Origin: a virus | Lineage: Duplodnaviria; Heunggongvirae; Uroviricota; Caudoviricetes | Virus record (IMG/VR): IMGVR_UViG_2541047728_000005 | Strand: one strand, 5' to 3' | Length of the DNA stretch: 47,804 nucleotides | Shown here: positions 2,997 through 36,442 of the stretch, piece by piece | How positions within the stretch are numbered: the stretch's first letter is position 1 | How the letters are laid out: the number at the start of each line of letters is the position of its first letter | The notes under the pieces: generated by a model | What the model was told of the DNA's origin: nothing | Database searches by the model: none | Seen by the model: the letters and a program-made list of their open reading frames with translations, nothing else | Position numbers and translations under genes: made by a program

Positions 2997-3998
2997 TTAA
3001 TACCCATTAATTACTCTTCGGACATCAATCGAGGTGGTATAACCACTAGTCCCAATTGAATGCACAGCTTTCGATATAAGATATTTTCCAGAAAATGAAC
3101 CGAATCCCTCCAGATTTATAGTTACACCAGCTACCAATCTGGTGTCTCCAACCAATACTAAAGATCCGGTATTTTGATATCTATTTTTAAGCCGCAAAGC
3201 AGCCTTTGCCTTACGTTTTGCTTCATCTAAATTAGCTACCAGTTTTCTTATCTTAAGATTCGACCCTTCTTCTACGGATGGATCTACCCAAGTATACGAA
3301 AGCGACTTTCTTTTTTTAGGTACGCGATATTTGCACGTGCAACTTTTATACAAATCTGTAGATTGTGTGCTAAAGCTATATCTGATTATCTCATCAATAC
3401 CTAACGTAAGCGTAGCGATAGGATCTTTTTGCTCAAACATCTCTTGAGCAAATATTATTAATTGGCTATCAGTGACCTTTAACGACAACCCTTCATCCTG
3501 GCAAAGTCGATGGAGAAATTTTAAATCGCTTTCCTCCATTTGATCTTCACGCGCATAATATGGATTACTATCACCATCAATAAGAAACAACAGTTCAAGG
3601 TTAGCTAATTTAGCTATAGAAGTTGCTATATCTTTAAGAGTTGTTTTTTCCCATGCATTACTTTTTAAATCACGTCTAATGCCTGATGAAACAGGAACAG
3701 AAACAGCAGTTACCTCAACCACAGAAGGTGGTCCAGAGCAAGTTATGCCATCTACCTGGAATTTCCCGCACTCAAGGACGATTTGATTTATAGGCTTAAA
3801 GCTCAAATCAATAAAATCACCCTTTTTAGGTGTCCAGTCTCCAGACCATTTCCCATCATCATTTTTTAATATAATAGAAATATCATCGACCTGACCATCT
3901 TCATTATCTGTATAAGACATTGACAAAACATCAGGTGACATATGAGCGGTAATATTTACATTCTGATATATAACATCAAAAAGCGTTTTACGTAACAC
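2997..3998 (-). CDS. Tail protein D-like (P2 gpD / Mu gpP late control D family)
   Basis: 333-aa ORF downstream of tape measure and X-like gene, as in Mu/P2 tail operons. Confidence 0.55.
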   Translation of the reverse strand: MLRKTLFDVIYQNVNITAHMSPDVLSMSYTDNEDGQVDDISIILKNDDGKWSGDWTPKKGDFIDLSFKPINQIVLECGKFQVDGITCSGPPSVVEVTAVSVPVSSGIRRDLKSNAWEKTTLKDIATSIAKLANLELLFLIDGDSNPYYAREDQMEESDLKFLHRLCQDEGLSLKVTDSQLIIFAQEMFEQKDPIATLTLGIDEIIRYSFSTQSTDLYKSCTCKYRVPKKRKSLSYTWVDPSVEEGSNLKIRKLVANLDEAKRKAKAALRLKNRYQNTGSLVLVGDTRLVAGVTINLEGFGSFSGKYLISKAVHSIGTSGYTTSIDVRRVINGY

Positions 3999-4206
3999 TA
4001 TTGCGTCTCCACGGAGGAAAATTGTTTACTGATATTGGCATAACCGGAGCATCAGGAACTTTAAGAATAATTCCCGCAGAAAAAAGCACCGTAAAGCGGT
4101 GCTCAGTATTAGCATCAATAAGAAGATAAGACAGGTACTCATTACCATACAACTTTAAAGCGATACTATCCCATGAGTCCCCTTGAACCGTTCTATAATC
4201 ATCCAA
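3988..4206 (-). CDS. Small tail protein X-like (LysM-like)
   Basis: 72-aa ORF directly after tape measure gene; MDDYRTVQGDSWDSIALKLYG resembles LysM-type tail protein X. Confidence 0.45.
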   Translation of the reverse strand: MDDYRTVQGDSWDSIALKLYGNEYLSYLLIDANTEHRFTVLFSAGIILKVPDAPVMPISVNNFPPWRRNSVT

Positions 4207-6991
4207 AACTTAATCTCCGTTGTTGGAACATATGAGCACTCAATTTCTTCTCAAAATCAGAATATCCCGCATCTAATGCTCTTTTAGCTGCCGCCTCAGT
4301 TTCCTTTGGTGAACCAGCCGGAAGATTGATTACAGGTGAATAGGTTATTCCACCAGTCACAGCGTTAACGTTCTGGCGAGGTCCAGAAGTCCCAGCGGCA
4401 GATATCCCGTGAGGTGATAAATTTGATTGCCCGAACTTGCTTGCTATTGCATTCTGTAAGCTGTTATTCCTGCTAACACCTGATGCCAGAGTAGTCATTA
4501 TTGCACCACCTGACTTTGTTAGCTGTGAGAATGGACCTTTTTTCGCGTCAGAGAACGGTAAATACTCACGTACAGAAGAAAAAACGCCTTTCACTTCATT
4601 AATTAAAGCATTTGCTTTTGATTTTATCCCAGTGATTAACGTCTCAATTATTTTTGCGCCTGACTCACTCCAGTTTATTCCAGATAAATAAGTCGTTACA
4701 GATTGGAATGCTCTTATAAAGAGTCCAACTGGTGAAAAACGCATAAAAACAGATACCAGTGTATCTATGATTTTCTTTCCTGTTTCGCTCCAGTTAATGC
4801 CAGAAAGGTAATTTGTTGTAATTTTAAATGCTTTAATTAAGAACGGAAGCGGAGACATCCATTTAAAAGCACTAATTAATGTACTGTAAATTCTTACTCC
4901 TGCCGAACTCCAGTTTATGTTGGAAAGATAATCCCATGCTTTACCAAACATAGATATAATCCATCCATTGAGGTCAAAGTTTAAGATAAAGTTTTTTATA
5001 GCCTCAAATGATTTAACTGTATATTCCTTAACAGAAGGCCAAACTCTGACAGCATAATCTCTGATCTTATCCCAATTCTGATAGAGCAATATTCCTGCGG
5101 CAACCAGCGCAGATATAGCCATCTGAATCCACCCGAAGGGTGTTAGCTTTGTCGCTACAGATAAAGCCAGCATAGCTACCCTACACGCTATAACCACACT
5201 TTTCATGGTTAGAAACGCACCTGCCGCCATCACTATCTGAGACACAAAATTGGGGTTGTTAGCTACAAATTCACTAATTTTTGTAATCAGCGGAACCAAA
5301 ACACTAAGCGCGGCATTCAAAGCAGGTTGCAAGGCCTGACCAAAACTTAATGATGCATTGCTAGCCTGAATACGTAATTGTTTCAATCGCTCCGCATTAT
5401 CTTTCGTTATGTTGGCAAAATCGCGGTCAATAACAGCACTTCCAGCTCCAAGAGATGTTGCTTTGATTCTCTGGTATTCCTTCCAGTTTTGAATCATCGG
5501 ACGAACAAAGTTCTGAACCTGCATATCGCCAAATAGTTCACCAAGTAACTTCTGATCTCCGTTCTTAGTCATTTTCATGACAGAATGCATTGCAGCTTCG
5601 AATGGATTCTTCCCTTTTTTCTGCGCTGTTGTAACAATTTTATATAAATCTACACCGAAATTTTTCTTTGCTTTTTTTAGTGTTTCAGGGGAAAGTATTT
5701 TTGCCAAAAAGTTGTTCATATTATTAGCAGCCTCATCCGAAGTTGCAGCCCCCTTGCGAGCTATCTGCAAAGCTGCACCCATCGTCGCGGCTGCTTCTTT
5801 ACCTCCCATTTTTAATGCCTGGAACTGAGCACCAAGCACAGGAAGATTTTTGGCCATATCTTTAAATTCAAAGTTCCCCTCTTTCCCTGCCTGAACCAGA
5901 ATCCCCATTGCAGACTTCATTTGAGATGGATCAATCTTCAATGAGTCACTTAATGTAAATGATGCTTTCGAGACATCGAGGATATCAGAGCCAGTAGCTG
6001 TAGCTGTTCGCCCAATAGTTAGTAGATTCGCCTGAGCCTCTTTATAATCCTGCCCAGCAGCGACGAGAAAACCCTGAGCGGCCTGAATATCAGATGCAAA
6101 CTGGTTGGTAGCCGTTCCGGTAACAAGCATCGCCTGCCCCATCGCCTGAACTTCTTCCGGCTTCATATCTGCCGTAAGACCAATCATTTTGTTTTCACGA
6201 TTGAAATTTGCTGCATTGTTAGCAGCAGCAAATGCACCAGCCGCTACAGCACCAGTTTGTAATCCTGACCTTACAAGTTGACTCTTTGCCTCACCAAGAT
6301 GCTCTCGCTTCAATTCACGCTGCCTTTCCAACGCGCGGTTTAACTCCTCCTGAGCACGTTTTACTGCAAGAACATTTTTCCGTGCTTCAGCCAACGCATT
6401 TTTATAGCTGTTAATTTTATCAATACGTTGTTTTTCTAATGCCCGGTTAAGTTCCTCCTGCTGTTTTTTCACTTGCTGAACATTTGCTCTGGCTAAAGCC
6501 AAAGCCGTTCTGTAGCGGTTAACCTGCTCAACGCTACGGGCCTGAGCCTCACGATTACGATCAATGCTGGCTTTAAGCTCTTTCTCTCTTGAGGCCAAAG
6601 CTCTGGCAGATGTATCAGCTCCCTGATAGGCAGACTTTAAAGCGGCCAGTTCTTCACGCTGAGAACGTAGTGATGCTCGTAAATTTGATGAATGTGTTTT
6701 TGCCTTCTCAAAGTCACGAAGCATCGCTCTGGTTGGATTGGCCGTGTTTTTTATTTGCTTCTGTAACTCTTCAACGCGAGCGGCAGCTTTATGATATTCG
6801 AGGGCAGTCTGTCCAACCTTTACTTTTACAGATTGTAGCTTTTGAATTTCCCCATGTTCTTTCGTTAATCCAGCAAGCTCTGCATTTAATTTAGCAACAG
6901 CCTGATTAGCTGTAGTAAAACTTTTGGGGAGAGAGGCGGCAACTTTGCCGCCAATTTCAAAAGCCAGCTTAAAGTTCTTATTGCTGGCCAT
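4199..6991 (-). CDS. Tail tape measure protein
   Basis: 930-aa ORF; N-terminal coiled-coil with repeated AxLxRxxEE heptads, central hydrophobic segments, three tandem ~37-aa repeats ending in YLSGINWSE; follows chaperone gene. Confidence 0.85.
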   Translation of the reverse strand: MASNKNFKLAFEIGGKVAASLPKSFTTANQAVAKLNAELAGLTKEHGEIQKLQSVKVKVGQTALEYHKAAARVEELQKQIKNTANPTRAMLRDFEKAKTHSSNLRASLRSQREELAALKSAYQGADTSARALASREKELKASIDRNREAQARSVEQVNRYRTALALARANVQQVKKQQEELNRALEKQRIDKINSYKNALAEARKNVLAVKRAQEELNRALERQRELKREHLGEAKSQLVRSGLQTGAVAAGAFAAANNAANFNRENKMIGLTADMKPEEVQAMGQAMLVTGTATNQFASDIQAAQGFLVAAGQDYKEAQANLLTIGRTATATGSDILDVSKASFTLSDSLKIDPSQMKSAMGILVQAGKEGNFEFKDMAKNLPVLGAQFQALKMGGKEAAATMGAALQIARKGAATSDEAANNMNNFLAKILSPETLKKAKKNFGVDLYKIVTTAQKKGKNPFEAAMHSVMKMTKNGDQKLLGELFGDMQVQNFVRPMIQNWKEYQRIKATSLGAGSAVIDRDFANITKDNAERLKQLRIQASNASLSFGQALQPALNAALSVLVPLITKISEFVANNPNFVSQIVMAAGAFLTMKSVVIACRVAMLALSVATKLTPFGWIQMAISALVAAGILLYQNWDKIRDYAVRVWPSVKEYTVKSFEAIKNFILNFDLNGWIISMFGKAWDYLSNINWSSAGVRIYSTLISAFKWMSPLPFLIKAFKITTNYLSGINWSETGKKIIDTLVSVFMRFSPVGLFIRAFQSVTTYLSGINWSESGAKIIETLITGIKSKANALINEVKGVFSSVREYLPFSDAKKGPFSQLTKSGGAIMTTLASGVSRNNSLQNAIASKFGQSNLSPHGISAAGTSGPRQNVNAVTGGITYSPVINLPAGSPKETEAAAKRALDAGYSDFEKKLSAHMFQQRRLSFG

Positions 6992-6996
6992 TAGTA

Positions 6997-7179
6997 TTAA
7001 TCCTCATTAAACACGTCAATCCATGCGACGATTCGCCTCAACCGAAGCGAAAGCCAGTAGGATATAGGTGTTGATTGAGATGATTGAGATAGAGAACTCG
7101 CGGCCCTCATTATTTGCTTATCAATAGGTTTTTGCTCATCAAAACCTACGAGAGCAAAAAATTCTGTACCTTTTGACAA
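6997..7179 (-). CDS. Tail assembly chaperone frameshift extension (GT-like product via -1 frameshift)
   Basis: ORF in -1 frame overlapping 3' end of 7146..7427; slippery T_TTT_TTG on minus strand (plus 7155..7161). Confidence 0.45.
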   Translation of the reverse strand: MSKGTEFFALVGFDEQKPIDKQIMRAASSLSQSSQSTPISYWLSLRLRRIVAWIDVFNED

Positions 7180-7427
7180 ACTTTAACAAAGTCTTTCGCT
7201 GGTAATCCATTCAGATACTCTATTGGACGACCAATACAGCGAGCAGCCAAGGCTGCATGGACTTTATTATCAAGTGATGTTTGAACTGAAACATGCCCTT
7301 GAGATTGCAGTAAGTCCGATACCTCTAAAATATCACTGCCTTTTAGGTTGTCTAAATCAAGGTTGAGTTCAGTCACCGGCTCAAAGTCTTCAAAACGATA
7401 TTCTTTACTTAATTTAACGGTTTCCAT
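7146..7427 (-). CDS. Tail assembly chaperone (G-like), upstream frame
   Basis: 93-aa acidic ORF immediately upstream of tape measure gene; overlapped by -1 frame ORF. Confidence 0.6.
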   Translation of the reverse strand: METVKLSKEYRFEDFEPVTELNLDLDNLKGSDILEVSDLLQSQGHVSVQTSLDNKVHAALAARCIGRPIEYLNGLPAKDFVKVCQKVQNFLLS

Positions 7428-7436
7428 TTTGTCACC

Positions 7437-7958
7437 TTATAAACCTAAATCATCACGAACGCTTTTTAATATATCTTCACCATCAAAGATACAAATAAAG
7501 TTCAACTTATCAATTTCCAGGACTTCTTTTCCATCAATAAATAATTTGATATAGAGAACTTCAAATTCATTCTCTGAATCAGTAGCCTTTGCCACCTGTA
7601 GCGAACCTAAATCCAGTTTTTTAGGGTTTAGCTTCATTGAAGCCCGAATAGGAACCGTTTTATATTTTCCTGTTCCTGCATCATAAACCTGCTGGCTACC
7701 GCGAAAATCTACCTGATGCGATGAGGATAGAAATAATTTTGTACCAGCAGAGGTCAGAGTTCGCCATTTAAGAGAGACAGTCATTGGTTTGAAATGCCCC
7801 AGCGTTCCGCTCTCAAGCTCTCCAGCGATACCTGCACCACTAACAGTTTCTGTCATCATCTCAATTGATGGCAGCTTTGCGTCAGCAACACCGATAATAC
7901 GGTTTCCTTCACCGTATACTGTAAAGTTAATAAGTCTCTCAGGAATTTGATTGCTCAA
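7437..7958 (-). CDS. Tail tube protein
   Basis: 173-aa ORF between sheath and chaperone genes (Mu L-M order). Confidence 0.55.
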   Translation of the reverse strand: MSNQIPERLINFTVYGEGNRIIGVADAKLPSIEMMTETVSGAGIAGELESGTLGHFKPMTVSLKWRTLTSAGTKLFLSSSHQVDFRGSQQVYDAGTGKYKTVPIRASMKLNPKKLDLGSLQVAKATDSENEFEVLYIKLFIDGKEVLEIDKLNFICIFDGEDILKSVRDDLGL

Positions 7959-7974
7959 AGCAACCTCCTATTAT

Positions 7975-9438
7975 TTATTCAGAAAACAAGTTCAGCAGAT
8001 AATCAGGATTATATTCCATGACGAACTCTATATCTCTGGCAGGTGAGAATGGTGTCATTTTTACATGGAATTTAACAATCCCGTCCATCAATGACGTAAT
8101 CGTGTTTTCAGACTGATCAAAGGTAACAACACCACCTGCAATATCCTGATTACCAGTGAGGCCGTTAAGCCAAATATTCGCACTAGTAACAATCGATTCA
8201 ATTAATCGACGGTTTGCAGGATTGTCTATTTTTGACCAATGCGAAAGAATTAACGTATTACCCACCCAGTTAAACATACGTCGGCAAACACGAAATGCGT
8301 CTTTGGGGTCTGTAGATGTTGGATAAATAGCATTACGGTTTCCCCATGATTTCCAACCATCAAAATTAAGGCTTGTTACAATCCCCTGTCCATTTAAGTA
8401 GTTTGCCTGGCTAATGTTAAGCCATACCTCACTGCCATCTTTACGTACAGCACCGTCCATCTGTAGTTTTATATTTGACGGAGAACGTGATGGAATATCA
8501 CCATACTGACTATCCAGCAAGCATGTTGCTGCCGCTAAATGGGTTGAGTGATGGTAAATATTGTCACCAAGTTTCACCATCGGCCAGCACACTGTCTGGT
8601 TAGCTGCCATATGATTATTGTTCTGCTTCCATTCAGGAACAGCAGAATAATCACTGATAGTAGATTTATCAGTCGGCGCATCGGTGATAGCTTCTGCTTT
8701 GAACAATTCACTAATCAGCGCAGCTTTAGCCGCCATTAGCTGGCCAACTTCACTATCAGAACTAAATCCAGGCGCAATCACTTGTCCTGGAACTAGTTTG
8801 AAGCGGGGATAAACATCCGACAGTAACTCAAGCCCCGTATTCGCTTTAGTGTTGGAATCCACACCACCAATAATATCGTTTTTAGTTACAGCCCCGGGAT
8901 CAAGATGCGTATAACTAACCTTAAGAGTGGCGTCTTTTTCAGTAATTTTTCCTCCGCTAATAGCGGTAATGACCGTATAGCCATTATCATCCAGCGCCAG
9001 TACATAATCTGTATCAACCGTTAACCCTGGAGAATCACCATCTGCTTTTTTCACAACAACAGATTTATATAAGACACCATCGTTAGAGAGCGTACCTTTC
9101 CCGCCAGAAAGTTTTACTACCTCATCAGTTACGTCTTTCTTATGCTTTGCTGGATCAAGCACATTGATAAATACAACTGGCGCAACACCATATATTCCAA
9201 ATGCGACTTTAATTACTTCGCTTAAAGTATATTTCTCGAAGTTTGTGCTATATCCTATTTTAGATACGGCCTCTGCGTATGTATAAGCAATGATAGGTTT
9301 ATTTACCGCTGAGGCTGGATCTTCTAACTGATTAACAGGAGTTGTACCAAATGCGACAATCAACCCAGCACTAACTTGTACTGGAGGAGTTATAGATGTA
9401 GCCAGCTCAGATATATAAATACCGTGGCGATATCCCAT
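7975..9438 (-). CDS. Tail sheath protein
   Basis: 487-aa ORF, size and position typical of Mu/P2-type contractile sheath, upstream of tube. Confidence 0.65.
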   Translation of the reverse strand: MGYRHGIYISELATSITPPVQVSAGLIVAFGTTPVNQLEDPASAVNKPIIAYTYAEAVSKIGYSTNFEKYTLSEVIKVAFGIYGVAPVVFINVLDPAKHKKDVTDEVVKLSGGKGTLSNDGVLYKSVVVKKADGDSPGLTVDTDYVLALDDNGYTVITAISGGKITEKDATLKVSYTHLDPGAVTKNDIIGGVDSNTKANTGLELLSDVYPRFKLVPGQVIAPGFSSDSEVGQLMAAKAALISELFKAEAITDAPTDKSTISDYSAVPEWKQNNNHMAANQTVCWPMVKLGDNIYHHSTHLAAATCLLDSQYGDIPSRSPSNIKLQMDGAVRKDGSEVWLNISQANYLNGQGIVTSLNFDGWKSWGNRNAIYPTSTDPKDAFRVCRRMFNWVGNTLILSHWSKIDNPANRRLIESIVTSANIWLNGLTGNQDIAGGVVTFDQSENTITSLMDGIVKFHVKMTPFSPARDIEFVMEYNPDYLLNLFSE

Positions 9439-24452: not shown

Positions 24453-24528
24453 TGGTGGCCCCTACCGGATTTGAACCGATGACCGTGCGATTATGAGTCG
24501 CCTGCTCTAACCACTGAGCTAAGGGGCC
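24453..24528 (-). tRNA. tRNA with CAT anticodon, tRNA-Ile2 (lysidine)-like; could alternatively be Met
   Basis: Minus-strand GGCCCCTTAGCTCAGTGGTTAGAGCAGGCGACTCATAATCGC...GGTTCAAATCCGGTAGGGGCCACCA; cloverleaf with 7-bp acceptor stem, encoded CCA; 5' 42 nt match my recollection of E. coli ileX. Confidence 0.85.
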
Positions 24529-28677: not shown

Positions 28678-28976
28678 TCCTCATCTGCAACGGGGGTGTT
28701 CCGCTCCAGCACCTTGTCCGCATCGGCGATCAGGTTTGCCAGACTCTTGTCTGAAATCTTCGTTACCGGAGTCGTTGGTTGCTCAACCTGCCCGATAGGT
28801 TTTATCGTGCTCAAAAGGAGGCGACGGCGGGAAAGTGGTGCCCCACAACGACGGCCATCTTCCTTGCGATATGTTTCTTTCGGACCAACACACCAGGTTG
28901 TCGGCGTCTCGCGCAACTTCACTTTTTTCTCACCATCATTGGTAATGATTATTCCGGTATGTGTTTTGATGCTCAT
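28611..28976 (-). CDS. Hypothetical protein
   Basis: 121-aa ORF. Confidence 0.35.
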   Translation of the reverse strand: MSIKTHTGIIITNDGEKKVKLRETPTTWCVGPKETYRKEDGRRCGAPLSRRRLLLSTIKPIGQVEQPTTPVTKISDKSLANLIADADKVLERNTPVADEEWWQDFRAAMLELQERRREELK

Positions 28977-29275
28977 GCCACAGCCCCTCTCAACGGCTTA
29001 ACTTTGGCTAATAAGGTGTTAAACAACATGGAGTTAGGATTCATGCCAAATGGCAATTCCGGTTTAGCGGAGTAGTACAGGCAACCATTTATTTTCCTGG
29101 TTGTTATCTGTCCTTCGGCAACCATGCTTCTCAGTCTGCAACGCATAGAGTTCTGCGACACACCAATGTGCTCCGCGATTACGTCCACTTTTGAACATGG
29201 GTGATCGGTCAGGAAATTAATCACATCTTGGGGGTTAATAATTTTGCGTTTCATTGTCGAGGCGTCCTTATACAT
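28973..29275 (-). CDS. Putative winged-helix DNA-binding protein
   Basis: 100 aa; segment DVIAEHIGVSQNSMRCRLRSMVAEGQI resembles wHTH; preceded by TATA-rich array. Confidence 0.4.
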   Translation of the reverse strand: MYKDASTMKRKIINPQDVINFLTDHPCSKVDVIAEHIGVSQNSMRCRLRSMVAEGQITTRKINGCLYYSAKPELPFGMNPNSMLFNTLLAKVKPLRGAVA

Positions 29276-35534: not shown

Positions 35535-35557
35535 TAAAAAAGGCCCCCGAAGGGGCC
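35535..35557 (-). terminator. Rho-independent terminator oriented for minus-strand transcripts
   Basis: Minus strand GGCCCC-ttc-GGGGGCC followed by TTTTTTT; 7 nt after stop of small ORF 35564..35686. Confidence 0.65.
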
Positions 35558-35563
35558 TAATCG

Positions 35564-35686
35564 CTACTTGCTGCTAATGTTTATCGTCACATTCAGAGCG
35601 TTATCAGTAATCTTCCAACCCTCCCCATGTGGCGTAAACAAAGCCCCAGTAACAACGATAAAAATACACATACAGTATTTTTTCAT
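35564..35686 (-). CDS. Small hydrophobic peptide (40 aa), candidate type I toxin-like or small membrane protein
   Basis: MKKYCMCIFIVVTGALFTPHGEGWKITDNALNVTINISSK; AAGGG RBS 7 nt upstream; strong terminator immediately downstream. Confidence 0.45.
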   Translation of the reverse strand: MKKYCMCIFIVVTGALFTPHGEGWKITDNALNVTINISSK

Positions 35687-35917
35687 TGTATGGCCCTTAC
35701 AGGCCGTTTCACGGCATCCCCACCGACGAAAACAACGCGAGAGCAAGCACGGCTGCTTGTGCTTGCATGTACGGCAACGGAGAATCCTCCCCTAAAGTCG
35801 GTGCCCGGGTGCGAATCGGCGGGAAGGTCCACAGGTATTTTACGATTATTTTAAGATTAGTAATAGGAAAGAAATTAAACGAAAAAACTCGTTTATTTTC
35901 ACAAAATCAGTAACCTA

Positions 35918-36179: not shown

Positions 36180-36279
36180 GCGCCATTGGTGGACACTTTC
36201 CGAGCCGTAGCAAAATCTACGGTCGGGATTGGAACCCCGATAATCATCATGGCGCATACCGCGTTAGCGGTTTTTTTAT
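36180..36279 (+). ncRNA. Structured RNA segment ending at intrinsic terminator in antirepressor operon leader
   Basis: Hairpins CCGTAG-caaaat-CTACGG, CGGG-attggaa-CCCG, terminator ACCGC-gtta-GCGGT plus TTTTTTT at 36259..36279. Confidence 0.35.
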
Positions 36280-36442
36280 GCGTAAAGCACTGCTACACCC
36301 AAATTATGGTGGGGCGTGCGGGGGAGTCGTAAGACTCGCCGGATTCCATGGTGACCGGTAGTTCCAACCCTGTACGTCTCACCACCCAATGATTGGAACC
36401 AGACGGTGGTGAGTATCCTTAACCTTTAAGGGAACTATCACC

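What the first reader, a model, noticed from the sequence alone, without database searches (positions are those of the whole stretch)
6997..7427. Programmed -1 frameshift candidate in the tail assembly chaperone
The 93-aa chaperone ORF and a -1 frame ORF overlap just before the tape measure gene, with a T_TTT_TTG heptamer on the coding strand at plus 7155..7161. This is the conserved G/GT arrangement of tailed phages and would give a ~140-aa fusion product.
Basis: partly seen in the sequence, partly recalled or inferred. Interest (0 to 1): 0.4.

Follow-up and report, generated by a model that had tools for sequence, protein, structure and literature searches.

The report
P2-type tail chaperone -1 frameshift
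The small tail-assembly chaperone gene of this phage-plasmid has the same slippery TTTTTTG site as phage P2, so some ribosomes should slip back one base and make a longer 143-residue protein; the feature is real but ordinary, and the public annotations of this lineage that I inspected do not show it.

Summary
On the minus strand a 93-aa ORF (7427..7146) lies between the tail tube gene and the tape measure gene. It ends AAT TTT TTG CTC TCG TAG, so the heptamer T_TTT_TTG (7161..7155) is in register. The -1 frame then stays open for 52 codons, to a TAA at 6999..6997, 5 nt before the tape measure ATG. The predicted fusion is 143 aa (16.2 kDa).

The heptamer alone is not rare, so the support comes from context and comparison. 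I collected relatives through the neighbouring tube gene, which is independent of the slip site. Of 78 such loci with a chaperone homologue, 76 keep an in-register TTTTTTN followed by a 51-86 codon -1 extension. The base before the T run is T in 32 of 32 representatives, although that codon encodes seven different residues. The -1 peptide is conserved, and its substitutions fall mostly on third codon positions.

Phage P2 E/E+E' uses the same heptamer at the homologous position (91 and 142 aa). Vibrio phage X29's homologue is already annotated as a gpGT analogue. The three closest public records whose gene tables I read annotate only the short protein.

Verdict: a genuine but ordinary G/GT-type programmed -1 frameshift, and a new member of a known kind. 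Low interest.

The parts
7146..7427 (-). Zero-frame chaperone ORF (gpG / P2 gpE analogue): 93 aa, 10.4 kDa, stop TAG at 7148..7146. An AAGGTG ribosome-binding site lies 6 nt before the ATG.
   Evidence: PF10109 Phage_TAC_7 scores 23.7 bits (cut-off 25) for this protein; 22 of 24 family representatives match it. Masses.
7155..7161 (-). Slippery heptamer T_TTT_TTG, in register (AA[T TTT TTG]). Proposed site of tandem -1 slippage of tRNA-Phe (P site) and tRNA-Leu (A site).
   Evidence: Conserved in 32 of 32 representatives as T_TTT_TTN. Same heptamer as P2 E/E+E'.
6997..7155 (-). The -1 frame extension (gpT / P2 E' analogue): 52 codons from GCT (7155..7153) to GAT (7002..7000), then TAA at 6999..6997. 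Encodes ALVGFDEQKPIDKQIMRAASSLSQSSQSTPISYWLSLRLRRIVAWIDVFNED.
   Evidence: phrog_30074 matches residues 89-143 of the fusion. Alignment of 46 unique -1 peptides shows a shared G-[LF] ... W..(P)L.EL..W pattern. Substitutions against the 90%-identity group by codon position are 8/5/22.
6997..7427 (-). Whole G-T recoding unit, giving the 143-aa, 16.2-kDa fusion. Expected junction ...KVQNFL|ALVGF...; the diagnostic tryptic peptide is VQNFLALVGFDEQKPIDK.
   Evidence: AlphaFold model has mean pLDDT 84, with a helix (residues 77-96) running through the junction. BFVD fold matches to annotated chaperones.
7125..7148 (-). Possible weak 3' stimulator: hairpin UAGGUUUU-GAUGAGCA-AAAACCUA (8 bp, -7.1 kcal/mol), 6 nt after the heptamer. 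It includes the zero-frame stop codon.
   Evidence: Not significant on its own (z -0.9 to -1.3). Downstream structure is enriched across the family.
7168..7172 (-). Weak copy (AAGGU) of a Shine-Dalgarno-like element, G-N-N-G-G-U, found across the family and ending 6 nt before the heptamer. Role unknown.
7437..7958 (-). Tail tube gene, upstream neighbour (173 aa).
   Evidence: PF04985 Phage_tube, E 3.5e-44.
4199..6991 (-). Tape measure gene, downstream neighbour (930 aa). Its ATG lies 5 nt after the -1 frame stop, and its GAGGA ribosome-binding site lies inside the end of the -1 ORF.
   Evidence: PF10145 and phrog_28. Sequence.
7975..9438 (-). Tail sheath gene (487 aa). It shows this is a contractile-tailed virus.
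   Evidence: phrog_23, E 4e-95.

Best explanation
This is a programmed -1 ribosomal frameshift of the gpG/gpGT type, in its P2 E/E+E' form.

Most ribosomes translate the 93-aa chaperone and stop at UAG. A minority pause with tRNA-Phe on UUU in the P site and tRNA-Leu on UUG in the A site. Both tRNAs slip back one base onto U_UUU_UU, and translation then continues in the -1 frame for 52 more codons. The result is a 143-aa protein with the same N-terminal 91 residues and a new helical C-terminal domain.

By analogy with lambda G/GT and P2 E/E+E', the shared N-terminal part would coat the tape measure protein. The rare -1 domain would recruit the tube protein, so that the tail polymerises to the measured length. 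Neither protein is expected in the finished virion.

Shown here: the sequence anatomy, its conservation, the coding nature of the -1 frame, and homology to known chaperones.

Inferred: that slippage occurs at all, its efficiency (probably a few to about ten percent, as quoted for lambda and P2), and the binding partners.
For: 1. **Anatomy.** The heptamer is in register 2 codons before the stop, and the -1 frame stays open for 52 codons, ending 5 nt before the tape measure ATG.
2. **Uniqueness in the window.** It is the only one of 69 in-register heptamers with a long extension past the ORF's stop.
3. **Unbiased comparison.** In loci collected through the tube gene, 76 of 78 with a chaperone homologue (50 of 52 distinct sequences) have an in-register TTTTTTN and a -1 extension of at least 40 codons. 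The two exceptions are a truncated element and a contig end.
4. **Nucleotide-level constraint.** In 32 representatives below 80% identity:
   - the preceding codon ends in T in 32 of 32, although it encodes N, S, G, A, Y, T or D;
   - the Phe codon is TTT in 32 of 32, against 60% TTT in the background;
   - the next codon is TTN in 32 of 32.
5. **The -1 frame codes for protein.** The peptide motif is conserved. Substitutions fall 8/5/22 on codon positions 1/2/3.
6. **The fusion is one family.** PHROG 3140 spans the junction (E 2.8e-47). A fusion-family HMM aligns to P2 E+E' across the junction with the F-L columns superposed. The top BFVD fold match is a 147-aa protein aligned over 142 columns (E 2e-10), and other matches are named tail assembly or tape measure chaperones.
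7. **Precedent.** P2's -1 shift at TTTTTTG gives proteins of 91 and 142 aa (PMC3091744; P2 record). X29's homologue is annotated as a gpGT analogue. The lambda mechanism is summarised in PMC5009743.
Against: - There is no experimental evidence for this sequence.
- The heptamer alone is not over-represented.
- The window's own protein falls just under the Pfam PF10109 threshold (23.7 against 25 bits).
- No significant stimulatory structure is present in this copy (z about -1).
- The upstream Shine-Dalgarno-like element is weak here, and its 6-7 nt spacing lies outside the 9-14 nt range reported for -1 stimulators.
- Pairwise BLASTP against P2 E+E' is not significant (E 4.6). Only the family profile links the two.
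Confidence: 0.9

Rival explanations
1. The fusion is made, but through transcriptional slippage. RNA polymerase would add one extra U on the T6 run, and standard translation of the edited mRNA would give the same -1 frame product.
For: A homopolymeric T6 run is present, and in three representatives it is T7. The product would be nearly identical, so comparison of sequences cannot fully separate the two routes.
Against: Bacterial transcriptional slippage is described for runs of about 9 A or T (PMC5009743), and six is short. The run is kept in one codon register, and 25 of 32 representatives keep G as the seventh base. That fits tandem tRNA re-pairing. The P2 site is annotated as translational.
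Confidence: 0.04
2. The -1 ORF is translated on its own from an internal start (TTG at 7179 or ATG at 7109), giving a separate small protein rather than a fusion.
For: The mechanical ORF list gives a 60-aa TTG-start ORF. Some phage records annotate the equivalent ORF separately, for example KLER1-1 gp19 and phrog_30074.
Against: The TTG at 7179 has no ribosome-binding site. The Met at 7109 is not conserved: that alignment column is M, R or K. The nucleotide-level conservation of the in-register heptamer would then be unexplained. The modelled helix and the PHROG 3140 profile both run through the junction.
Confidence: 0.03
3. There is no recoding. The 154-nt stretch between the chaperone stop and the tape measure start is a spacer, and the open -1 frame is chance.
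For: RefSeq (PGAP) and two GenBank records leave the stretch unannotated. The heptamer is common in this 44.5% GC sequence.
Against: Relatives keep a 51-86 codon open -1 frame down to about 50% tube identity. The peptide motif is conserved, and substitutions are biased to third codon positions.
Confidence: 0.02
4. Frameshifting happens, but not by tandem slippage on the heptamer. It could be P-site-only slippage of tRNA-Phe (junction ...NFF|ALV), or a single-tRNA shift on the A_AAG four codons upstream (CA[A AAG], 7173..7170; junction ...CQK|GTEFFALV).
For: The -1 frame is already open from 7182, so both routes give a T-domain fusion. A_AAG is a shift-prone site in E. coli (PMC5009743).
Against: A_AAG is not conserved in relatives, which have CAG GAG, CAG GCG and others. 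The heptamer is conserved.
Confidence: 0.08

Closest known systems
Phage P2 gpE / gpE+E' (FETUD tail operon; Christie et al. 2002, cited through PMC3091744)
   Same: - Contractile-tailed phage with the same gene order: sheath, tube, chaperone, tape measure.
- Identical heptamer TTTTTTG in the same register, near the 3' end.
- Product sizes of 91 and 142 aa, against 93 and 143 aa here.
- The K-V-x-x-F-L context and AAGGU(G/A) lie at the same distance upstream.
- The family profile aligns across the junction.
   Different: - Pairwise similarity is not significant.
- P2's zero-frame stop is 6 codons after the heptamer, against 2 here.
- The P2 literature reports no downstream structure, whereas about half of this family has one.
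- The rest of the tail module differs: here a tail-X-like gene follows the tape measure and gpU lies after gpV.
- The element is a plasmid-borne prophage.
Vibrio phage X29 gpG and gpGT analogues (YP_009043921, YP_009091831)
   Same: A true homologue: the chaperone is 45% identical and the tube 58%. It has the same AAT TTT TTG two codons before the stop, a 57-codon -1 extension with the TPIPYW..PL.EL motif, and is annotated as a joined CDS.
   Different: X29 has an extra 84-aa gene between tube and chaperone and a strong downstream stem-loop (z about -6), which this window lacks.
Phage lambda gpG / gpGT (Levin et al. 1993; Xu, Hendrix and Duda 2004, 2013, 2014)
   Same: The same logic and position: a -1 shift near the end of the gene before the tape measure, giving a minor fusion protein. 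G would bind the tape measure and T the major tail protein.
   Different: Lambda has a non-contractile tail and, from my own knowledge, uses a different slippery sequence (G_GGA_AAG). No sequence similarity was detected here, and the Pfam family is different.
Pfam PF10109 Phage_TAC_7 ('E, or 41 or 14', including the Mu-like prophage FluMu gp41)
   Same: 22 of 24 family representatives match it, many database relatives carry the domain, and one is named FluMu gp41.
   Different: The window's own protein scores 23.7 bits, just under the 25-bit cut-off.
E. coli dnaX -1 frameshift (5' Shine-Dalgarno element, A_AAA_AAG, 3' stem-loop)
   Same: A tandem-slippage heptamer in E. coli, with a purine-rich anti-SD-complementary element upstream and, in many relatives, a stem-loop 5-10 nt downstream.
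   Different: The upstream spacing is 6-7 nt rather than about 10. The heptamer is U-rich. Efficiency is presumably far below 50%. The frameshift product is the longer protein, not the shorter one.

Membership tests
gpG/gpGT-type tail assembly chaperone frameshift (Xu, Hendrix and Duda 2004) | Two overlapping ORFs lie between the major tail or tube gene and the tape measure gene | tested here: met
   Tube 7437-7958, chaperone 7146-7427, -1 ORF down to 6997, tape measure 4199-6991.
gpG/gpGT-type tail assembly chaperone frameshift (Xu, Hendrix and Duda 2004) | The second ORF is in the -1 frame and has no conserved start of its own | tested here: met
   Frame worked out. There is no ribosome-binding site before the TTG at 7179, and the internal Met is not conserved.
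gpG/gpGT-type tail assembly chaperone frameshift (Xu, Hendrix and Duda 2004) | A canonical X_XXY_YYZ slippery heptamer lies in register within the overlap | tested here: met
   AA[T TTT TTG] at 7161..7155.
gpG/gpGT-type tail assembly chaperone frameshift (Xu, Hendrix and Duda 2004) | The slip site and the coding -1 extension are conserved in relatives | tested here: met
   76 of 78 loci collected through the tube gene. 32 of 32 representatives have T_TTT_TTN. Third-position substitution bias is 8/5/22.
gpG/gpGT-type tail assembly chaperone frameshift (Xu, Hendrix and Duda 2004) | The fusion protein is actually produced, at a low ratio to the short form, and is needed for tail assembly | not testable with these tools
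   This needs mass spectrometry, western blots, reporter assays and genetics.
gpG/gpGT-type tail assembly chaperone frameshift (Xu, Hendrix and Duda 2004) | The G part binds the tape measure protein and the T part binds the tube or major tail protein | not testable with these tools
   Inferred from lambda work summarised in PMC5009743.
P2 gpE / E+E' family (Pfam PF10109 Phage_TAC_7) | The protein matches PF10109 at or above the gathering score | tested here: inconclusive
   The window protein scores 23.7 bits against a cut-off of 25 (E 5e-5). 22 of 24 family representatives match at E of 0.01 or better. Relatives have precomputed PF10109 hits.
P2 gpE / E+E' family (Pfam PF10109 Phage_TAC_7) | TTTTTTG slip site at the homologous position, with product sizes of about 91 and 142 aa | tested here: met
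   P2 has GG[T TTT TTG] at L118 2679-2685. The profile alignment puts the F-L columns together. Sizes here are 93 and 143 aa.
P2 gpE / E+E' family (Pfam PF10109 Phage_TAC_7) | The E'-like C-terminal extension is homologous | tested here: met
   The fusion-family HMM aligns positions 71-139 to P2 E+E' residues 66-134 (14.8 bits, E 1e-6 for a single-target search), including the W..L.EL..W segment. The score is weak, and pairwise BLASTP is not significant.
dnaX-type stimulated -1 frameshift | Shine-Dalgarno-like stimulator 9-14 nt 5' of the heptamer | tested here: not met
   The conserved GGNGGU element ends 6 nt before the heptamer. The window's copy is only AAGGU.
dnaX-type stimulated -1 frameshift | Stable 3' stem-loop 5-9 nt after the heptamer | tested here: inconclusive
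   An 8-bp hairpin of -7.1 kcal/mol with a 6-nt spacer, but z is only -0.9 to -1.3. Across the family the mean z is -1.8, and 15 of 32 representatives are below -2.
Transcriptional slippage recoding | Homopolymeric A or T run of about 9 or more | tested here: not met
   The run is T6 here and T6-T7 in relatives. The length criterion comes from PMC5009743.

The most novel reading that the evidence does not exclude
The slip site in this P2-type chaperone family may not be a bare heptamer. It may be flanked by two undescribed, RNA-level modulators.

1. A Shine-Dalgarno-like G-N-N-G-G-U element ends 6 nt upstream of the heptamer. It is kept by synonymous-site selection: G at -9 in 24 of 32 representatives against 9.1 expected. 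It is also present in P2 as UAAGGUGGU. Its spacing is outside the 9-14 nt known to stimulate -1 shifts.
2. A stem-loop starts 5-10 nt downstream in about half of the lineages.

Together these could tune the G:GT ratio lineage by lineage. In the window's own lineage both are weak.
Probability: 0.2. Interest if true: 0.35.

Novelty: new member of a known kind. Interest (0 to 1): 0.15.

Why it matters
The main value is better annotation.

- **Scale of the gap.** A near-identical stretch occurs on plasmids of 71 complete E. coli genomes, including ATCC 25922. The one plasmid record I read annotates only the 93-aa protein, and the hit summaries list no further feature under the match. It also occurs in five deposited phage genomes (Yersinia phages vB_YpM_39, 41 and 44, and two E. 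coli phages). vB_YpM_39, whose table I read, calls only the 93-aa protein, and the summaries for the other four show no extra feature.
- **Consequence.** A protein that is probably essential for tail assembly is missing from those proteomes, and 154 nt look non-coding.
- **Wider use.** The case adds a well-conserved set of contractile-tail examples (32 diverse representatives) for training frameshift predictors, which are built largely on actinobacteriophage chaperone annotations (SEA-PHAGES).
- **Open question.** The family-wide upstream G-rich element and the frequent downstream hairpins would be worth a reporter experiment, but they do not change the ordinary nature of the finding.

Tried and rejected
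- **Genome-collection scans.** The scan with the chaperone alignment failed because no stretch was conserved enough. The scan with the single tube protein returned one locus. I therefore relied on viral contigs.
- **Locating the chaperone.** My first two attempts, by ORF position relative to the tube or tape measure genes, were unreliable: extra genes intervene and tape measure starts were miscalled. I replaced them with an HMM search of ORFs.
- **Rfam.** No family matched at the site, either at gathering thresholds or at E up to 10. The only hits were chance miRNA and snoRNA matches.
- **Solved structures.** The profile search found nothing below E 0.68. Foldseek against PDB found nothing below E 2. 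No solved structure is available for this chaperone family.
- **Structure prediction.** I used the fusion plus database chaperone homologues instead, so the T part was modelled without alignment depth (pLDDT 64-87).
- **Apparent natural fusion.** P0045 (134 aa, 92% coverage) was examined and rejected. It has an internal deletion and garbled sequence, and comes from a 535-bp contig. P0014 and P0018 look like sequencing frameshifts.
- **Literature.** Christie et al. 2002 (PMC135442) is not held, so P2 details are taken second-hand from PMC3091744, PMC5009743 and the P2 record. No paper mentions vB_YpM_39.
- **Internal initiation from the upstream element.** I considered whether the Shine-Dalgarno-like element serves to start the T ORF. 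It does not: there is no -1 frame start codon downstream of it.

Full report
**What is there**

All genes in this part of the window run on the minus strand. In order they are:
- tail sheath, 7975-9438 (phrog_23, E 4e-95; no Pfam match);
- tail tube, 7437-7958 (PF04985, E 3.5e-44);
- a 93-aa ORF, 7146-7427;
- a 930-aa tape measure protein, 4199-6991 (PF10145 and phrog_28);
- then tail-X-like, gpD-like, gpV-like, gpU-like, gpW-like and gpJ-like baseplate genes.

The 93-aa ORF ends ...AAG GTA CAG AAT TTT TTG CTC TCG TAG. The heptamer T_TTT_TTG at 7161..7155 is therefore in the X_XXY_YYZ register, two codons before the stop.

The -1 frame is closed by a TAA at 7185..7183 and is open from 7182. 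After the heptamer it reads GCT CTC GTA GGT ... for 52 codons, to a TAA at 6999..6997, 5 nt before the tape measure ATG.

Tandem slippage would give a protein of 91 + 52 = 143 aa, 16.2 kDa, against 10.4 kDa for the short form. Every coordinate and size in the finding is correct.

**Is it more than chance?**

The heptamer alone is not. TTTTTTG occurs 17 times in the window, against 22 expected from shuffles.

The configuration is. I listed all in-register X_XXY_YYZ sites (Y = A or T) in every ORF of at least 80 aa on both strands. There are 69. Only this one has a -1 frame that runs at least 30 codons past the ORF's own stop (49 codons; the next best is 24, in a doubtful plus-strand ORF).

**Identity of the proteins**

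- The conceptual fusion matches PHROG 3140 'tail assembly chaperone' in one stretch, residues 1-137, E 2.8e-47. The match crosses the junction.
- Residues 89-143 match phrog_30074, a family of separately annotated short ORFs.
- The N-terminal part matches Pfam PF10109 Phage_TAC_7 ('E, or 41 or 14') at 23.7 bits, just under the cut-off of 25.
- 22 of 24 diverse family members match that Pfam family. Most database relatives carry it, and one is named Mu-like prophage FluMu gp41.

**Comparative test**

I wanted relatives chosen independently of the slip site, so I pulled loci through the neighbouring tube gene as well as through the chaperone. I then located the chaperone homologue in each locus with an iterated HMM.

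Results for the 81 loci collected through the tube gene:
- 78 contain a chaperone homologue. The other three contigs end just after the tube gene.
- 76 of those 78 (50 of 52 distinct sequences) have an in-register TTTTTTN near the 3' end, followed by a -1 extension of 51-86 codons.
- The two exceptions are L041, an element whose sequence diverges 16 codons into the extension and which has no tape measure gene, and L042, a contig that ends three codons after the site.

In 32 representatives sharing less than 80% identity:
- The codon before the run ends in T in 32 of 32, although it encodes seven different residues (N 20, S 4, G 2, A 2, Y 2, T 1, D 1).
- The Phe codon is TTT in 32 of 32, against 60% TTT in the background.
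- The following codon is TTG in 25, TTA in 3, TTT in 3 and TTC in 1.
- The zero-frame stop follows within 1-4 codons in 27 of 32.

This is conservation of the RNA sequence, not just of the protein.

**The -1 frame codes for protein**

The 46 unique -1 peptides align with a shared G-[LF] start and a W..(P)L.EL..W segment. Between the window and the group with 90% tube identity, differences downstream of the chaperone stop fall 8, 5 and 22 on -1 frame codon positions 1, 2 and 3.

An AlphaFold model of the fusion has mean pLDDT 84, but the T part had no alignment depth. It shows a beta-hairpin and helices for the chaperone part. One helix, residues 77-96, runs through the junction, and two helices form the extension.

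- No solved structure resembles the model.
- In the viral predicted-structure library the best match is a 147-aa protein aligned over 142 columns (E 2e-10, 37% identity). That is the length of the X29 joined product.
- Further matches are named tail assembly chaperone or tape measure chaperone.

**Comparison with known systems**

- **P2.** The P2 record annotates E (91 aa) and E+E' (142 aa, joined CDS, 'site of -1 translational frameshift') between FII and T.
  - Its sequence is AAG GTG GTC GGT TTT TTG: the same heptamer, register and K-V context as here.
  - PMC3091744 states that the P2 -1 shift occurs at TTTTTTG and that the site is conserved in P2-like phages.
  - Pairwise BLASTP between the window fusion and P2 E+E' is not significant. 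An HMM of the fusion family does align to P2 E+E' residues 66-134 across the junction, with the F-L columns superposed.
- **X29.** Vibrio phage X29 has a chaperone 45% identical to this one. It carries AAT TTT TTG two codons before its stop and is annotated as 'lambda gpG analog' plus a joined 'lambda gpGT analog'.
- **Mechanism.** The mechanism attributed to such pairs is summarised in PMC5009743. G coats the tape measure protein. The rare GT recruits the major tail or tube subunit through its T domain. The ratio is about 30:1 in lambda, with 2-3 fold higher shifting in P2. Neither protein is found in the virion. I transfer that mechanism by homology and position; nothing here tests it directly.

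**Stimulators**

In this window the only candidate 3' element is an 8-bp AU-rich hairpin, 7148..7125, of -7.1 kcal/mol, starting 6 nt after the heptamer. The downstream region does not fold significantly better than shuffles (z -0.9 to -1.3).

Across the family the 70 nt after the heptamer are more structured than control segments. The mean z is -1.8, with 15 of 32 below -2, against -0.1 to -0.6 for controls (Mann-Whitney p 5e-4). Stems often start 5-10 nt downstream.

Upstream, most relatives and P2 have a G-rich element complementary to the anti-Shine-Dalgarno sequence, ending 6 nt before the heptamer. Examples are cAGGAGGUc, cAGGCGGUu, P2 uAAGGUGGU, and AAGGU here.
- G at the synonymous position -9 occurs in 24 of 32 representatives, against 9.1 expected from codon usage (z 6.1).
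- G at -12 occurs in 27, against 20.1 expected.
- The spacing is shorter than the 9-14 nt reported for -1 stimulators.
- The counts are not corrected for phylogeny, so I leave this as an unexplained observation.

No Rfam family matches the site.

**Rival explanations**

- *Transcriptional slippage.* This is unlikely for a T6 run, because runs of about 9 are described. The fixed register and the conserved seventh base fit tRNA re-pairing.
- *Independent initiation of the -1 ORF.* This is unsupported. There is no ribosome-binding site at the TTG at 7179, and the internal Met is not conserved.
- *A non-coding spacer.* This is contradicted by the conservation data.
- *A shift at the upstream A_AAG (7173..7170) or P-site-only slippage.* Both would give nearly the same fusion. 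Only the junction peptide can tell them apart.

**Context and novelty**

The window is a phage-plasmid.
- The 601-nt stretch matches plasmids of 71 complete E. coli genomes, at 99% identity or more in 65 of them and 100% in the 15 best. Most of those listed are about 47-50 kb, and they include the 48,488-bp plasmid of ATCC 25922. It never matches a chromosome.
- One such plasmid carries repA, parA, a RelE/ParE toxin gene and a full virion module.
- A 1.2-kb stretch across the site is 97.5-99.6% identical to Yersinia phages vB_YpM_39, 41 and 44, and 98.9% identical to two E. coli phages.
- The two records of this lineage whose gene tables I read (one E. coli plasmid and vB_YpM_39) annotate only the 93-aa protein, and the hit summaries of the others show no extra feature under the match. 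The more distant KLER1-1 record annotates the short protein plus a separate small ORF, not a fusion.

The frameshift is therefore unannotated in this lineage. It belongs squarely to a known kind, and a homologue at 45% identity is already annotated.

**Verdict**

My confidence that this is a real programmed -1 frameshift is about 0.9. It is a new member of a known kind, and interest is low (0.15).

Noticed in passing
window 7168-7172 (-); relatives L002-L116 and P2 (L118 2668-2675): A Shine-Dalgarno-like G-N-N-G-G-U element ends 6 nt before the slip heptamer in most relatives and in P2 (UAAGGUGGU). Synonymous-site G is in excess at -9 (24 of 32 against 9.1 expected, z 6.1) and at -12 (27 against 20.1). 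The spacing is shorter than the 9-14 nt known for -1 stimulators. The counts are not corrected for phylogeny.
   Followed up: partly
70 nt downstream of the heptamer in 32 representative loci (e.g. L002, L099, L110, L108, L032): About half of the family has a strong stem-loop starting 5-10 nt after the heptamer (mean z -1.8, 15 of 32 below -2, controls -0.1 to -0.6). The literature I read calls such structures rare for phage chaperone frameshifts and absent in P2. The window's own hairpin is weak.
   Followed up: partly
whole window; L119 (NZ_CP009861.1): The window is a phage-plasmid. The stretch around the site (6900-7500) matches plasmids of 71 complete E. coli genomes, mostly 47-50 kb among those listed and including ATCC 25922, and never a chromosome. 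One such plasmid has repA, parA, ParB-like genes and a RelE/ParE toxin gene next to a full contractile-tail virion module. 'Yersinia phages' vB_YpM_39, 41 and 44 are 97.5-99.6% identical over 6800-8000.
   Followed up: partly
window 35536-35832 (-), 36204-36277 (+), 36302-36389 (+): Rfam matches above the gathering scores to ryfA RNA, isrK Hfq-binding RNA and C4 antisense RNA (from my own knowledge, the P1/P7-type immunity RNA). They are clustered within 1 kb.
   Followed up: no
window 24453-24528 (-): One tRNA gene with anticodon CAT. ARAGORN calls it tRNA-Met. A tRNA annotated as tRNA-Ile in the RefSeq plasmid record is probably its counterpart, but I did not align the two.
   Followed up: no
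window 3988-4206 (-): A 72-aa tail-X-like ORF (phrog_46, E 4.8e-17; PF05489 at 21.1 bits, just under the 22-bit cut-off) overlaps the end of the tape measure gene by 8 nt. It is annotated in vB_YpM_39. RefSeq plasmid NZ_CP009861.1 shows an unannotated 200-nt gap at the corresponding place.
   Followed up: partly
L010 and L041 (IMGVR_UViG_2824588292_000004): A relative with 81% tube identity keeps the chaperone and the TTTTTTG. Its sequence diverges 16 codons into the -1 extension, and no tape measure gene follows. It is probably a truncated or interrupted prophage.
   Followed up: partly
window 7170-7173 (-): An A_AAG (CA[A AAG]) lies four codons upstream of the heptamer, inside the stretch where the -1 frame is already open. 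It is a possible minor alternative shift site in E. coli, but it is not conserved in relatives.
   Followed up: partly
window 28696-29001 (+): The only other in-register heptamer with a sizeable -1 run past its ORF's stop is a TTTTTTC with 24 codons, in a 101-aa plus-strand ORF of doubtful reality. It is probably chance.
   Followed up: no
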